31,095 nucleotides of DNA from Campylobacterota bacterium (GTDB lineage Bacteria > Campylobacterota > Campylobacteria > Campylobacterales > Sulfurimonadaceae): NCBI GenBank assembly GCA_034717975.1, contig JAYEMF010000135.1:1-31095 (forward strand), read 5' to 3'. Under the pieces are notes generated by a model. It was given only the letters and a program-made list of their open reading frames with translations. It was not told the origin of the DNA and made no database searches. Numbering within the stretch: position 1 is the stretch's first letter; every line of letters starts with the position of its first letter. The position numbers were made by a program, and so were the translations under genes. Below are positions 10,983-17,434 of this stretch, in pieces.

Positions 10983-11246
10983 TCATGGCAAATAGCTCAT
11001 TTTATGTACTAAATAAAGTATAACAAATCTGCCTGTCACTATGCCTATTATTGAATAAACAGCCATTGAGCCGTACATAAGAAAGAGTGTCCCCAAAAAT
11101 ATACTTAGCACAGAAAAACGCAATGGAAAAGTCAAATAAAATGAAACTTTACGCCTCTTTCCAAGGTTTGCAAGTTGAAAATAGAGATGAGAAAAATAGA
11201 AGATCGCGATAACATTGCCGATAATAAAAAAAAGTATCTCTTTCAT
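10983..11246 (-). CDS. atpR: N-ATPase subunit AtpR
   Basis: 87-aa, 3-TM protein with two membrane Arg residues (LRF, GRF); directly follows atpQ. Confidence 0.75.
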   Translation of the reverse strand: MKEILFFIIGNVIAIFYFSHLYFQLANLGKRRKVSFYLTFPLRFSVLSIFLGTLFLMYGSMAVYSIIGIVTGRFVILYLVHKMSYLP

Positions 11247-11536
11247 TTTTTATAAATAAAAACTCTCCAGATAGAGTAAAGGGCAATAAAAAGCCCCAAA
11301 ATAATGAATGTAACGGTCCAGGAGACACTGCCTGCGCTCACCTCTATGTTTTTATCCAGATGATTGCCGATATAACCGCCGATAACCATAGGCAGAGCCA
11401 CCATCCATCCTATCGCACCGACAATAACGACAGTTTCCCAGAATATACCTTTTTTACGCCATTTTTGCATCCATGACGCTTTTTTGCCGATATGTTCTTT
11501 AAAGCTGTTTTTCTCCTCGTTGTTATTCAACTTCAC
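11243..11536 (-). CDS. atpQ: N-ATPase AtpQ (AtpZ/AtpI family)
   Basis: GAIGWMVALPMVIGGYIGNHLD...SWT motif; follows atpC. Confidence 0.85.
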   Translation of the reverse strand: MKLNNNEEKNSFKEHIGKKASWMQKWRKKGIFWETVVIVGAIGWMVALPMVIGGYIGNHLDKNIEVSAGSVSWTVTFIILGLFIALYSIWRVFIYKK

Positions 11537-11924
11537 GCTCCAGTTCGATCATCTTTTTAAAAAAGGCTTTTTGCAGGTTTTCCATATTGAGATGGAAGAG
11601 GGACTCTTTCTCTTTTTGCTCTTGAGAGAAGCGTTCTATGATCTGCTTTAGTTCGTCAATCCGGCTGCTTTGTACGAACTCTTTTGTCGTGATCGTCAAG
11701 ATCCCTTTTTTAAAAGAGAGTATGCCGCCGTTAAATGCAAAATATTCCTCATTAGCGTCGATAACCGCGATAGCGATAGAAGGTTCCAAAATCGTCAGAA
11801 ACTCGATATGTCTTGGCAGTATGCCGAACGAACCGCTGCTGTCTTCGGCTCTAAAAAAAGAGATATTATCTACTTTTTTTAGATGAGAAGGGGTGATGAT
11901 GTGTGCACTAAAGGTTGACTTCAT
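11523..11924 (-). CDS. atpC: N-ATPase epsilon subunit
   Basis: [24 protein letters not shown] 11924 overlaps the end of atpD. Confidence 0.9.
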
Positions 11925-14324: not shown

Positions 14325-15074
14325 ATGTTTAACTGGTGGACCTTCTTTTTCCAGGTCATAAATTTTTTTATTGTCCTCTTTATTCTCTATCGACTCTTTT
14401 TCAATCCTTTGAAACGTGTCATTCAAAAAAGAGAAGAAGCGATCAGCCAGCGCATGAAAAAGCTGGAAGAGGGTGAAAAACACGTCGAAGAAGAGAAGGA
14501 ACGCTATCAGGAAAAAATGGATGAGTTGCAAACGCTTCGGGAGAAAAAGCTTGACGAAGTAAAAAAAGAGGCTTTGATCGAAAAGGATATCCTGATGAAA
14601 GAGGCCGACAAGGAGATCGCAAAAGCGTATGAAAAACAGAGCGGTATTATCGATCAGGAACGGAAAAAATTTGAAAAAGAGATCAGGCAAAAAAGCCTGG
14701 AGTTCAGCATCCATTACACTGAAAAACTGCTCAATGAGGTGAGCGACAAGCTGTTGCACCAAAAACGTATCGATCAGTTTCTGCAGGCGTTGCCCCAAAG
14801 CAATGCGAAAGAGATCGCGTTGTTGAAAGAAGAGCTTGCCGGCAAAGCTTGTGAAGTCATGCTCTATACCCCTTTTAACCTGCAAGAGACGACGAATCAG
14901 AAGATAAAAGAGACTATAGGCCGACTCCTTCAATGCAACTCGGTTGTGCTGCAGAGTGTTCAGGATGTCTCTTTGATAGGCGGAATCCGTCTTGCCATCA
15001 AAAATAAAATTCTCGATGCCTCCATCAAAGGAGAATTGGAGCGGTTCAAAGAGCAGATGGAAAACGAGCTGTAG
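14325..15074 (+). CDS. atpF: N-ATPase b subunit with fused delta-like C-terminus
   Basis: WWTFFFQVINF TM anchor, coiled coil, SLIGGIRL...LDASI tail; no separate atpH. Confidence 0.92.
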   Translation: MFNWWTFFFQVINFFIVLFILYRLFFNPLKRVIQKREEAISQRMKKLEEGEKHVEEEKERYQEKMDELQTLREKKLDEVKKEALIEKDILMKEADKEIAKAYEKQSGIIDQERKKFEKEIRQKSLEFSIHYTEKLLNEVSDKLLHQKRIDQFLQALPQSNAKEIALLKEELAGKACEVMLYTPFNLQETTNQKIKETIGRLLQCNSVVLQSVQDVSLIGGIRLAIKNKILDASIKGELERFKEQMENEL

Positions 15075-16589
15075 ATGGATAGCAAAGAGATTGTCGAGAA
15101 AACGTTCGATACCCTGTATCAGGCAGCAGAGCAAGAGAGAGAAATATTCACTGCAAAAGAAGAGGGATATATCTCCAACGTCGGTGACGGCATCATCGAA
15201 GTCAAAGAACTCCCTAATGTCGCCTATTTCGAGCTTCTGGAACTCCCCCATAATCTTTTTGCCCTCGCACTCAATATCAAACAGGAATCGGTTCAGGCCA
15301 TTGTTCTGGGAGAGTATACGCTGCTCAACGTCAAAGACCGTGTCAGATACACCAACAAAAGCGTCTCGATCCCAGTCGGGTATGAGCTGCTAGGGAAGGT
15401 AGTCGATCCCCTGGTCTTTACATTGGATGAGCAGCGGCCGATAGTGACGAAGGAAAGCTATTCCATTGAACAGGAGGCCATACCGCTGATGCAGAGAGAT
15501 TTTGTCAAAGAACCTCTCTATACCGGCATAAAGATTGTCGATGCAATGATCCCTATTGGAAAGGGTCAAAGAGAGCTTATTATCTCGGATTCCTCTCTGG
15601 GTAAAACATCGATAGCAGTCGATACGATCATCAATCAAAAAGCAGAAGATGTCATCTGTGTTTATGTCTCTATCGGGCAGAGAAAAACGCAGATCGCCCG
15701 GGCGATCGATGATCTGAAACGTTATGACGCCCTCTCGCATACAGTAGTGGTCGCAGCATCGGCAGATGCTTCTGCCGGTATGAAGTTCATCGCTCCCTAT
15801 TCCGGATGTGCCATTGCCGAATACTTCAGGGACCAAGGCAAAGATGTACTGATCGTCTATGATGATCTCACCAAACATGCCGATGCCTACCGAAGCATCT
15901 CTTTGCTACTTGAGATACCACCCGGACGCGAAGCATACCCCGGAGATATCTTTTTTATCCATTCACGCCTTTTGGAGCGGGCCGGAAAAAGGGACGACAA
16001 CTATAAAGGGGGCTCCATTACCGCACTTCCTATCATCGAAACACAGGCAGGGAGGATCTCCGACTATATCCCCACCAATCTTATATCGATAACGGACGGC
16101 CAGATCTACCTTGACAGAGAGCTTTTCAACAAAGGGTTTTTACCGGCCATCGATATTGGCCGCTCAGTATCGCGTATCGGCGGTAAAGCACAGTCAGCTG
16201 CGCTGAAAAAGATGGCGGTAAAACTCAAACTTGACTATGCCCAGTTTTTGGAAGTTGAAATATTTACAAAGTTTGGTACAAAAGTAGAAAAGGAGACGCA
16301 AAAGTTGATCGACAGGGGACGGGCGTTGAGGGCTGCACTTAAGCAGAAGCGTTTCGAACATATCAGCATGCCGGAGCAGGTTGTCATCTTTTTTTTGAGT
16401 AATGAAGGATATCTGCAGGTGTTGCCTTTAACGGAAATAGAAGCGTTCATAGAAAAATTTATACTTCTGGTCAAAAAGAAATATCCTGATATTCTGGGCA
16501 CTATCGACGCAACAAAAGAGATCAATAATGAGCTGACTGAACACCTGCAGGTTGCCGCGGACGAGTTTTCAAAAGTGTGGCACCGATGA
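15075..16589 (+). CDS. atpA: N-ATPase alpha subunit
   Basis: PIGKGQRELI, PPGREAYPGDIF, ISITDGQI, SVSRIGG. Confidence 0.96.
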   Translation: MDSKEIVEKTFDTLYQAAEQEREIFTAKEEGYISNVGDGIIEVKELPNVAYFELLELPHNLFALALNIKQESVQAIVLGEYTLLNVKDRVRYTNKSVSIPVGYELLGKVVDPLVFTLDEQRPIVTKESYSIEQEAIPLMQRDFVKEPLYTGIKIVDAMIPIGKGQRELIISDSSLGKTSIAVDTIINQKAEDVICVYVSIGQRKTQIARAIDDLKRYDALSHTVVVAASADASAGMKFIAPYSGCAIAEYFRDQGKDVLIVYDDLTKHADAYRSISLLLEIPPGREAYPGDIFFIHSRLLERAGKRDDNYKGGSITALPIIETQAGRISDYIPTNLISITDGQIYLDRELFNKGFLPAIDIGRSVSRIGGKAQSAALKKMAVKLKLDYAQFLEVEIFTKFGTKVEKETQKLIDRGRALRAALKQKRFEHISMPEQVVIFFLSNEGYLQVLPLTEIEAFIEKFILLVKKKYPDILGTIDATKEINNELTEHLQVAADEFSKVWHR

Positions 16590-17434
16590 GTACCTCTTTA
16601 CGTTTGACAAAGAAACTCAAAAGCACAGAAGAGATCGAAGAGATCGTCTCATCGATGAAGGTATTTGCAAATTTCAATGTCCAGAGTGCCAAACACAAGC
16701 TCCCCTATTTGCGTGCTTATCAAAGGAGTATTGAGGATGGGATAGGGGATATTGTCACGATTTTCCCGAATCTGATAAAAATTGAAGAGATCCTGCCCCG
16801 GAAAACGATCTATGTCCTCTTTCTGTCTGAAGAGGGGCTCTGCGGTTTTTTCAACGAAAATATCCTCAATTTTTTCAATGCCATTCCCAAAGAGAGCCAC
16901 ACGGCTGTCGTCATAGGTGAAAAAGGTGCAGACGAAGCAAAAGCGCAAAAGCTCTCTTGCGGCAAATATCTTAAAGGTGCGTCTAATGTTGAAGCCATTG
17001 ACACCTATACCATAGAGCTCTCTGCCTATTTAAATGATCTGGTTGCAAAAGAAAATTTGAGTGCTCTGAACCTGGTCTATGCGAAACATAACGATCAGGG
17101 CAGCTATGATGTCGTCAACAAAAAAGTCCTGCCGCCGGATTTTTCAAAGCTCCATAAAGAGTCCATAAAAAAAGAGCCGCTTTTATATCTTGAAAGCCAT
17201 GAGATACTGAATGTTTTGATCAAGGAGTATCTTCATACCTCATGCTACAGGGCATTTCTCGAATCGGTTGCCAGCGAAAACCAGGAGAGGCTGAGCAGCA
17301 TGATCCATGCAGGAAGCGCCATCAAGGAGAGGAAGAAGACAATGAAACTCGAACTCAACTCCCTTCGGCAAAAAGAGATCACGGAAGAGTTGCTGGAAAC
17401 AGTAAATACCTATCGTTCAATGATAAAAAAATAG
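16586..17434 (+). CDS. atpG: N-ATPase gamma subunit
   Basis: IVSSMK, SEEGLCGFFN, ASENQERLSSM, RQKEITEEL; ATGA overlap. Confidence 0.93.
   Translation: MSTSLRLTKKLKSTEEIEEIVSSMKVFANFNVQSAKHKLPYLRAYQRSIEDGIGDIVTIFPNLIKIEEILPRKTIYVLFLSEEGLCGFFNENILNFFNAIPKESHTAVVIGEKGADEAKAQKLSCGKYLKGASNVEAIDTYTIELSAYLNDLVAKENLSALNLVYAKHNDQGSYDVVNKKVLPPDFSKLHKESIKKEPLLYLESHEILNVLIKEYLHTSCYRAFLESVASENQERLSSMIHAGSAIKERKKTMKLELNSLRQKEITEELLETVNTYRSMIKK

What the first reader, a model, noticed from the sequence alone, without database searches (positions are those of the whole stretch)
10983..17434. N-ATPase operon split into two head-to-head halves (atpDCQR <- -> atpBEFAG)
Seen: all nine N-ATPase genes are present and intact, but atpD-C-Q-R is on the minus strand and atpB-E-F-A-G on the plus strand, with start codons 80 bp apart. 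Gene order within each half is preserved. Established: N-ATPases are characteristically encoded as one co-directional atpDCQRBEFAG operon. Inference: the DCQR block was cleanly inverted, or this is a distinct lineage arrangement. Catalytic beta, epsilon and the assembly factors could then be expressed separately from alpha, gamma and the Fo sector. This is the best candidate for an undescribed system in the window.
Basis: partly seen in the sequence, partly recalled or inferred. Interest (0 to 1): 0.78.

Follow-up and report, generated by a model that had tools for sequence, protein, structure and literature searches.

The report
Head-to-head N-type ATPase gene cluster
A second, sodium-pump-like rotary ATPase in a sulfur-oxidising bacterium is encoded as two back-to-back gene blocks instead of one operon; this layout is real and shared by a whole group of related bacteria, so it is a modest, apparently undescribed gene-order variant of a known machine.

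Summary
Nine intact genes lie at 10983-17434: atpR-Q-C-D on the minus strand and atpB-E-F-A-G on the plus strand, with start codons 80 bp apart.

It is not an artefact. Contigs from 4 runs bridge both junctions with no alternative joints. All 16 close homologous loci whose junction is visible show the same head-to-head layout (3 genomes, 13 metagenome contigs).

All 8 more distant N-like loci whose beta/a junction is visible are co-directional. None of 80 canonical loci has an opposite-strand ATPase gene. The best reading is one old in-place inversion of atpDCQR in a Campylobacterales-borne clade of N-ATPase-like enzymes.

Both halves share the same deep tree. Conflicts are shallow and not centred on the half boundary, so this is not a chimera.

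The cluster is patchy and sits in different flanks.

The gap holds a conserved TATAAT for atpD. In the window it forms a symmetric TATTATA that could fire both ways. This is inferred; no RNA data exist.

I found no description in print. An earlier scan note (e1-894685) covers a co-directional N-type operon on other DNA, not this layout. It is a new variant of a known kind, of low to moderate interest.

The parts
10983..11246 (-). atpR-like small membrane protein, 87 aa. Arg sits in the motifs FPLRF and TGRF.
   Evidence: ORF. PF12966 E 0.016, below cut-off. hhalign against AtpR of L117-L119: E 6.9e-5, probability 63%, both Arg aligned. tblastn finds it in 11 of the 12 other clade loci that reach this far; not in L094.
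11243..11536 (-). atpQ (ATPase gene 1 family), 97 aa
   Evidence: PF09527 E 2.2e-10, above cut-off. TIGR02230 41.2 bits, below its cut-off of 46.7.
11523..11936 (-). atpC, epsilon subunit, 137 aa (TTG start as listed; an ATG lies four codons further in)
   Evidence: PF02823 E 1.9e-12. TIGR03166 (alternate epsilon) 58.2 bits against a cut-off of 100.1.
11908..13269 (-). atpD, catalytic beta subunit, 453 aa
   Evidence: PF00006 E 2e-71. TIGR01039 627 bits (cut-off 463); TIGR03305 610 bits (cut-off 752). 53% identical to the genome's own canonical beta on contig C27.
13270..13349 (.). 80-bp divergent control region. The symmetric heptamer TATTATA lies at 13295-13301: TATAAT read towards atpD, TATTAT read towards atpB.
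   Evidence: Sequence. ATTATA is present in 16 of 17 clade loci, 23-38 nt from the beta start. All 7 short-gap loci carry a TAnnnTA element near the centre. Promoter function is inferred. The sigma-70 scan that requires a -35 found nothing here.
13350..14057 (+). atpB, a subunit, 235 aa
   Evidence: PF00119 E 2.1e-33. NF009954 254 bits (cut-off 272); TIGR03306 174 bits (cut-off 302).
14050..14316 (+). atpE, c subunit, 88 aa. Glu in helix 1 (GEADA) and ESVxxY in helix 2.
   Evidence: PF00137 E 7e-15. Aligned to the solved Na+-type c rings 3zk1 and 1yce. Motifs are conserved across the clade.
14325..15074 (+). atpF, long b subunit with a delta-like C-terminal part, 249 aa. No separate delta gene.
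   Evidence: PF00430 at residues 6-136 and PF00213 at residues 163-245, matching profile positions 91-172. TIGR03321 is the best NCBIfam hit: 128.5 bits, cut-off 224.7.
15075..16589 (+). atpA, alpha subunit, 504 aa
   Evidence: PF00006, PF00306 and PF02874. NF009884 640 bits (cut-off 554); TIGR03324 597.5 bits (cut-off 750.5).
16577..17434 (+). atpG, gamma subunit, 285 aa
   Evidence: PF00231 E 1.6e-45. TIGR03323 is the best NCBIfam hit: 114 bits, cut-off 282.

Best explanation
This is a complete accessory rotary ATPase of the N-ATPase kind: beta, epsilon, AtpQ, AtpR, a, c, a b-delta fusion, alpha and gamma. It sits in a Sulfurovaceae-like genome that also has a canonical F-ATPase. In the common ancestor of a clade now found in Campylobacterales genomes and related metagenome contigs, the atpDCQR block was inverted in place. 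The cluster has since been inherited and transferred as one 6.4-kb cassette with two divergent transcription units and a 70-135 bp shared control region. Shown here: the genes, the layout, its conservation, the co-directional sister loci, the shared deep phylogeny of the two halves, the patchy distribution and the differing flanks. Inferred: in the window and the other short-gap loci, one symmetric -10 element (TATTATA, 13295-13301) lets RNA polymerase start in both directions. That would couple expression of the beta/epsilon/Q/R half to the a/c/b/alpha/gamma half, and would explain how the inversion was tolerated. The long-gap subclade has added a separate TATCAT-type -10 element in front of atpB. 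Also inferred: the enzyme most likely works as an ATP-driven Na+ (possibly H+) export pump. This rests on the c-subunit ligands, the published view of N-ATPases, and the neighbouring Na+/H+ exchanger gene.
For: Genes and domains. A second, canonical F-ATPase (alpha and beta) lies on contig C27. Head-to-head layout in 16 of 16 close loci with a visible junction (L093-L108). Co-directional order in L109, L113, L114 and L116, L022 and the annotated N-ATPase operons L117-L119. None of 80 canonical loci has an opposite-strand ATPase gene. In both the beta and alpha trees the clade is monophyletic (99-100 support) with the same sister, L109 (plus L110 and L111 for alpha). All five gene partitions give the same three-group backbone. 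Contigs of 4 runs bridge both junctions with no alternative joints. Patchiness: none of 30 relatives has a match above 57% identity, and 3 of 400 other genomes of the phylum carry it. Flanks differ between loci. Control region: TATAAT for atpD in 16 of 17 loci; symmetric TAnnnTA in 7 of 7 short-gap loci; an extra TATCAT or TATAAT 26-38 nt before atpB in the long-gap loci. The passages I read of bioRxiv 10.1101/2020.01.31.928960 describe overlapping symmetric -10 elements that give divergent starts 18 bp apart. The c subunit aligns to two-carboxylate and Na+-type rings.
Against: There is no transcript data. No listed run is on record as RNA, so both promoters, and any coupling between them, are unproven. 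TAnnnT hexamers are frequent in AT-rich spacers. The sigma-70 scan with a -35 requirement found nothing in the gap. AU tests reject each half's exact tree on the other half's alignment (p about 4e-5). The partition test places that conflict inside one shallow six-member subgroup and shows it is strongest for gamma against alpha, which lie in the same half. Some recombination between close relatives, or chimeric metagenome contigs, is therefore likely. All seven NCBIfam 'alternate F1F0' models score below their cut-offs. The clade does not robustly join the reference N-ATPases in trees. The c subunit has Val where classical Na+ sites have Thr, so ion specificity remains open.
Confidence: 0.8

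Rival explanations
1. The two halves are regulated independently. The split lets the cell make beta, epsilon and the AtpQ/AtpR factors under conditions different from those for alpha, gamma and the membrane sector.
For: The 11 long-gap loci carry two separate -10-like elements about 55-70 bp apart, so independent control is physically possible there. The gap sequence outside the -10 elements differs between subclades.
Against: All nine products are needed for one enzyme. The window's 80-bp gap holds one central symmetric element and no second strong -10-like hexamer near atpB. No regulator gene is conserved beside the cluster. No RNA data are available.
Confidence: 0.12
2. The locus is a chimera. 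The atpDCQR half and the atpBEFAG half come from two different ATPase operons that landed side by side.
For: AU tests reject the other half's exact topology in both directions.
Against: Beta and alpha place the clade with the same sister and the same three internal groups. The beta alignment does not reject the a-c-b topology (p 0.10) or the alpha topology (p 0.16). The strongest conflict is gamma against alpha, within one half. The sister locus L109 carries both halves co-directionally.
Confidence: 0.04
3. The head-to-head layout is an assembly error in this metagenome-derived contig.
For: The genome is a 149-contig draft. Two of the four runs laid may be its own source.
Against: The same layout occurs in 16 independently assembled loci, two of them on single-contig genomes of 1.77 and 1.81 Mb. 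Contigs from two runs not flagged as the source also bridge both junctions.
Confidence: 0.01
4. The divergent layout is ancestral for this branch of rotary ATPases, and the co-directional atpDCQRBEFAG order arose from it.
For: The branching order among the clade, the reference N-ATPases and the canonical F-ATPases is unresolved.
Against: The nearest sister with both halves (L109) and all other N-like loci examined (L022, L113, L114, L116, L117-L119) are co-directional. Parsimony therefore needs only one inversion on the branch leading to the clade.
Confidence: 0.03

Closest known systems
N-ATPase (atpDCQRBEFAG) as defined by Dibrova, Galperin and Mulkidjanian 2010 (PMC2881411; passages read). 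Examples here: plasmid operons of Picosynechococcus sp. PCC 7003, Azospirillum sp. B510 and Burkholderia pyrrocinia.
   Same: Same nine gene products. AtpQ and an AtpR-like protein with two membrane Arg are present. There is no delta gene, and the b subunit is long with a delta-like tail. The c subunit has Glu in helix 1. It is a second enzyme beside a canonical F-ATPase, and its distribution is patchy and lateral. Gene order within each half is identical.
   Different: The DCQR block is inverted, giving two divergent transcription units. Beta and alpha are only 51-52% and 43-46% identical to the three reference operons, about the same as to canonical F-type subunits. All seven NCBIfam 'alternate' models score below their cut-offs. 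The clade forms its own deep branch. Helix 2 of c reads ESVxxY, not ESTxxY.
Published N-ATPase gene-order exceptions: Persephonella marina, urf2-atpBEFAGDCI (PMC2881411), and Nitrosococcus halophilus, one of two N-ATPase loci 'split in half' (PMC4154653, passages read).
   Same: Both rearrangements break at the same module boundary, between the beta/epsilon(+Q/R) block and the a-c-b-alpha-gamma block. PMC5709465 (passages read) also treats these as two modules.
   Different: Those cases are a permutation on one strand and a separation to distant sites in single species. Here the two blocks stay adjacent, face away from each other, share a short control region, and the state is fixed across a clade.
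Bidirectional bacterial promoters with overlapping symmetric -10 elements (Warman et al., bioRxiv 10.1101/2020.01.31.928960; passages read).
   Same: The window's TATTATA gives a TAnnnT hexamer on each strand, offset by one base. That is the geometry the paper links to divergent starts 18 bp apart. The paper also reports enrichment in horizontally acquired DNA.
   Different: No start sites have been mapped here. The organisms are Campylobacterota, whose promoters I did not examine. The fit is by sequence only.

Membership tests
N-ATPase (Dibrova et al. 2010) | Single co-directional operon atpD-C-Q-R-B-E-F-A-G | tested here: not met
   Order is kept within each half, but DCQR lies on the opposite strand, 80 bp from atpB.
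N-ATPase (Dibrova et al. 2010) | atpR present: small membrane protein with three predicted TM segments, two of them carrying conserved Arg | tested here: met
   An 87-aa hydrophobic ORF in the expected position. PF12966 E 0.016, below cut-off. hhalign against three annotated AtpR: E 6.9e-5, both Arg aligned. The support is weak but consistent. TM segments were judged by eye, not with a predictor.
N-ATPase (Dibrova et al. 2010) | atpQ (PF09527) between epsilon and atpR | tested here: met
   PF09527 40.9 bits, above the cut-off of 26.6.
N-ATPase (Dibrova et al. 2010) | No delta gene; elongated b subunit whose C-terminus resembles delta | tested here: met
   249-aa b subunit with PF00430 at residues 6-136 and the C-terminal part of PF00213 at residues 163-245. 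No separate OSCP/delta ORF lies in the cluster.
N-ATPase (Dibrova et al. 2010) | c subunit with Na+ ligands and a Glu in helix 1 | tested here: inconclusive
   The helix-1 Glu, and Glu, Ser and Tyr in helix 2, are present. The Thr of ESTxxY is Val. Ion specificity cannot be read from sequence alone.
N-ATPase (Dibrova et al. 2010) | Present as a second enzyme beside a typical F- or A-type ATPase | tested here: met
   Canonical alpha and beta lie on contig C27 of the same genome.
N-ATPase (Dibrova et al. 2010) | Subunits cluster with N-ATPases and apart from typical F-ATPases in trees | tested here: inconclusive
   The clade is clearly apart from canonical F (98-100 support). It is not robustly joined to the reference N-ATPases, and the base of the tree is unresolved. 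Sampling was small: 32 rows per subunit, 50 rows in the paralog-rooted tree.
NCBIfam 'alternate F1F0 ATPase' models (TIGR03305, 03324, 03323, 03306, 03322, 03321, 03166) | Score above the curated cut-off | tested here: not met
   All seven score below their cut-offs: beta 610/752, alpha 597.5/750.5, gamma 114/282, a 174/302, c 103.6/130.85, b 128.5/224.7, epsilon 58.2/100.1.
Bidirectional promoter with symmetric -10 (Warman et al.) | Overlapping TAnnnT hexamers on both strands | tested here: met
   TATTATA lies at 13295-13301. A TAnnnTA element is present in 7 of 7 short-gap loci.
Bidirectional promoter with symmetric -10 (Warman et al.) | Divergent transcription start sites about 18 bp apart | not testable with these tools
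   No run on record as RNA was listed.

The most novel reading that the evidence does not exclude
The Campylobacterales clade and its co-directional sisters (L109-L111) form a third deep lineage of N-like rotary ATPases. In its inverted members a single symmetric -10 element drives both halves of a nine-subunit machine. That would be a natural case in which promoter symmetry rescued an operon-splitting inversion and now ties the expression of the two assembly modules together.
Probability: 0.3. Interest if true: 0.5.

Novelty: new variant of a known kind. Interest (0 to 1): 0.3.

Why it matters
N-ATPases are described as having a strictly conserved single operon that moves as one unit. ProAD, an automated catalogue, identifies them by that exact order (PMC11738941, passages read). 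A whole clade with the catalytic beta/epsilon and AtpQ/AtpR block turned round shows three things. First, the order is not obligatory. Second, the break falls at the same module boundary seen in the other published exceptions. Third, order-based catalogues may mislabel these enzymes as F-type. The public names for these proteins are plain 'F0F1 ATP synthase subunit beta'. One search also names cultured species (Nitrosophilus alvini, N. kaiyonis) among the sources of close beta homologues. Whether their genomes carry the head-to-head layout was not checked under those names. If they do, they would allow a simple test of whether one symmetric promoter can balance the two halves of a rotary motor. 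The practical weight is modest: it is a gene-order variant, not a new machine.

Tried and rejected
1. The genome-contig scan with the beta protein was flooded by canonical beta subunits. I reused those loci as a negative set.
2. No RNA holder was listed for the stretch, so expression and start sites could not be examined.
3. Read laying gave contigs only, so it offers no depth or strand information. The first attempt failed on the machine side.
4. The sigma-70 scan with a -35 requirement found 12 sites against 12.3 expected, none in the gap. It is uninformative here.
5. The Rfam scan of 10400-17800 gave only two chance-level hits (E 0.62 and 0.96), neither in the gap.
6. I tried to define the insertion borders from same-genus genomes. 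The flanking GGDEF and Na+/H+ exchanger genes have no syntenic orthologues there. The best matches were 68% on a small contig, otherwise 27-42%, and 36-37% for the exchanger. The borders stay undefined.
7. Flank comparison across loci found no conserved neighbour.
8. Earlier scan notes held nothing on this place or sequence. One note covers a co-directional N-type operon elsewhere.
9. Two papers on relevant organisms do not mention ATPase or ATP synthase in their main text (PMC7728183; PMC11800652). Supplements were not opened.
10. I did not fold any protein or test any complex. The families are textbook ones and a fold would not bear on gene order.
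Full report
**What is there**

The window is a whole 31,095-bp contig (C135) of a 2.52-Mb, 149-contig genome. Between 10983 and 17434 lie nine intact genes.

- Minus strand: an AtpR-like 87-aa membrane protein (10983-11246), AtpQ (11243-11536), epsilon (11523-11936) and beta (11908-13269).
- Plus strand: a (13350-14057), c (14050-14316, 88 aa), a 249-aa b subunit (14325-15074), alpha (15075-16589) and gamma (16577-17434).

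Pfam and NCBIfam confirm each gene. The C-terminus of b matches the C-terminal half of the delta/OSCP profile, and there is no separate delta gene. The two start codons are 80 bp apart.

The AtpR assignment is the weakest. PF12966 scores E 0.016, below its cut-off, and NCBIfam gives nothing. However, a profile of the clade's copies aligns over 79 columns with the annotated AtpR of three reference N-ATPase operons (E 6.9e-5, probability 63%), and both hallmark arginines are matched.

The same genome has a canonical alpha and beta on contig C27. This enzyme is therefore a second one.

**Is it an artefact?**

No. Contigs of four public runs hold the stretch. The runs come from one study, a brine metagenome, and two may be the source sample. 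Their contigs bridge both the beta/a junction and the atpR end, and no alternative joint was reported.

Independent assemblies are more telling. A metagenome scan with the a subunit and a sample of 400 other genomes of the phylum gave 24 related loci, which I mapped by tblastn with the nine window proteins. Sixteen of them are close relatives (a subunit 60-81% identical) with the junction visible: three genomes (G187, G374, G095) and thirteen metagenome contigs (L096-L108). All sixteen have beta and a head to head. A seventeenth close locus, L115, starts inside the a gene and cannot be judged.

**Where does the layout stop?**

- The nearest sister with both halves, L109 (beta 58%, a 52%), is co-directional: D-C-Q-(gap)-B-E-F-A-G.
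- So are L113, L114 and L116, the alphaproteobacterial L022, and three annotated plasmid-borne N-ATPase operons fetched as references (Picosynechococcus, Azospirillum, Burkholderia).
- L110, another sister, has B-E-F-A-G with no D, C, Q or R hit in the 7.5 kb upstream or 4 kb downstream.
- L111 and L112 begin at or near a contig end, so their junction is not visible.
- Among the 80 loci that the wasted genome-contig scan returned, none has any ATPase gene on the strand opposite to beta.

The head-to-head state thus occurs in 17 of 17 clade members, in 0 of 8 other N-like loci with a visible junction, and in 0 of 80 canonical loci. Reversing D-C-Q-R in place gives exactly the observed R-Q-C-D | B-E-F-A-G. 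One inversion on the branch leading to the clade is the most economical account.

**Chimera or co-inherited?**

In the beta tree and the alpha tree the clade is monophyletic (99 support). It has the same sister and the same three internal groups: the G374/G095 pair, a group holding the window, and a group holding G187.

AU tests on concatenated halves do reject each half's exact tree on the other half's data (p about 4e-5 both ways). I report this as evidence against simple congruence. I then split the data into five partitions without the long-branched L109. Three points emerged:

- All five partitions share the backbone.
- The disagreements lie inside one shallow six-member subgroup.
- The worst conflict is gamma against alpha (p 4e-5 and 8e-6), and these are neighbours in the same half.

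The beta alignment does not reject the a-c-b tree (p 0.10) or the alpha tree (p 0.16). The conflict therefore points to recombination among close relatives, or to mixed metagenome contigs. It does not point to two halves of different origin.

**What kind of ATPase?**

By gene content this is an N-ATPase as defined in 2010 (PMC2881411, passages read). AtpQ is present, along with an AtpR-like protein with two membrane arginines. There is no delta gene, and the b subunit is long with a delta-like tail. The c subunit has Glu in helix 1, and the enzyme is always a second copy.

By sequence it is a deep branch of its own.

- Beta and alpha are no closer to the three reference N-ATPases (51-52% and 43-46%) than to canonical F-type subunits (52-56% and 41-51%).
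- All seven NCBIfam 'alternate F1F0' models score below their cut-offs, although they are the best hits for b and gamma.
- A paralog-rooted alpha+beta tree leaves four lineages unresolved at the base: two reference N groups, canonical F, and this clade with its sisters.

The c subunit aligns with the solved two-carboxylate ring 3zk1 and the Na+ ring 1yce. It carries Glu (helix 1) and Glu-Ser-Val-x-x-Tyr (helix 2) throughout the clade. One locus, L101, has Gln in helix 1. Val replaces the Thr of the ESTxxY motif quoted in PMC2881411, so Na+ use is likely but not certain.

**Distribution and mobility**

None of 30 relatives (same genus, family and order) has a match above 57% identity over a partial stretch, or 55% full-length. 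Those matches are their canonical beta. Three of 400 other genomes sampled from the phylum carry the cluster, in two other families of the same order.

The big protein collection holds 34 full-length clusters at 66-91% identity. The named ones are Sulfurovaceae, Sulfurovum and Nitrosophilus. After that, identity drops to 61% or lower.

Flanking genes differ from locus to locus. The exception is the two genomes of family f17, which share carB/Sua5-like and PAS/metH neighbours. The cassette therefore moves, or is lost, as a unit that includes both halves.

**The control region**

Gaps fall into two classes.

- Seven loci have short gaps of 69-80 bp: the window, L094, L095, L096, L103, L106 and L108.
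- The other ten loci have long gaps of 117-134 bp.

Sixteen of 17 loci carry ATTATA, which reads TATAAT towards atpD, 23-38 nt from the beta start. In six short-gap loci the preceding base is T, giving TATTATA. L094 has TATCATA instead. Each is a TAnnnT hexamer on both strands, offset by one base. That is the geometry reported for bidirectional promoters with starts 18 bp apart (bioRxiv 10.1101/2020.01.31.928960, passages read).

In the window the heptamer is at 13295-13301. It lies roughly central, 26 nt from the beta start codon and 48 nt from the atpB start codon, counted from the heptamer's ends.

Most long-gap loci have C at the first position, which weakens the atpB-directed reading. They also carry an extra TATCAT (TATAAT in L093) 26-38 nt before atpB.

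On the tree the short gap is found in the basal pair and in the window's group, so it is probably the older state. My reading is that a symmetric -10 element allowed both halves to be transcribed right after the inversion, and that one subclade later gained a dedicated atpB promoter. All of this is inference from sequence. No RNA run was available.

**Literature**

Full-text searches for N-ATPase or atpDCQRBEFAG found 49 papers, of which 25 were listed. Pairing N-ATPase with Campylobacterota or with Epsilonproteobacteria gave one paper each, neither on this subject.

Known exceptions to the order are Persephonella marina (a permuted order; PMC2881411) and one split locus in Nitrosococcus halophilus (PMC4154653, passages). 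PMC5709465 (passages) treats beta-epsilon and a-c-b-alpha-gamma as modules. ProAD (PMC11738941, passages) recognises N-ATPases by the single-cluster order and mentions manual re-annotation of misfits. I did not open its supplements, which may list these loci. The 2026 preprint 10.64898/2026.10.01.756066 (passages) does not mention Campylobacter or Sulfurovum.

**Verdict**

The layout is an old, clade-wide inversion within a known kind of accessory ATPase. It is already present in public genomes but I found no printed description of it. It is a new variant of a known kind. The most interesting open point is the possible single bidirectional promoter.

Noticed in passing
window 17477-20435 (minus strand): Directly after gamma, and convergent to it, lie a CBS-domain protein (17477-17941), a Na+/H+ exchanger family protein (17938-19221) and a PPK2 polyphosphate kinase (19671-20435). 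The sister locus L109 also has a Na+/H+ exchanger homologue (37% identity) right after gamma. The Burkholderia plasmid operon has a CBS-domain gene next to atpD. This may reflect a shared ion-homeostasis theme.
   Followed up: partly
window 10753-10855 and 17333-17428: In runs X3 and X4 the contigs break, or run on into unlike sequence, just outside both ends of the ATPase cluster (tables 7 and 8). This suggests co-occurring strains that differ at the cluster's edges. No flank-to-flank joint was reported.
   Followed up: no
window about 10730-10876 (plus strand): A short Cys-containing ORF of about 48 codons sits behind a purine-rich ribosome-binding-like stretch. I read it by eye. It is below the ORF-listing threshold and lies where the contigs of X3 and X4 break.
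   Followed up: no
L110:7501-11505: A sister-lineage contig carries a-c-b-alpha-gamma with no beta, epsilon, Q or R hit within 7.5 kb upstream or 4 kb downstream. A LuxR-type regulator gene lies upstream. It may be a further split of the same module boundary.
   Followed up: partly
L093, L098, L099, L100, L102, L105 (gamma genes): The gamma tree conflicts strongly with the alpha tree inside one shallow subgroup (AU p 4e-5 and 8e-6). This hints at recombination within the cluster among close relatives, or at mixed-strain contigs.
   Followed up: partly
L101, c subunit: One clade member has Gln instead of Glu at the helix-1 ligand position. This is the state found in classical Na+ rings.
   Followed up: no
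window 8670-10559 (minus strand): A 629-aa 7TMR-DISM sensor fused to a GGDEF diguanylate cyclase lies next to the atpR end of the cluster. The Burkholderia reference locus also has a diguanylate cyclase near its operon. This is probably coincidence.
   Followed up: no
window 24951-29956 (minus strand): A 1205-aa single-chain pyruvate:ferredoxin oxidoreductase is followed by a ClC-type chloride channel. These are ordinary genes, noted only for context.
   Followed up: no
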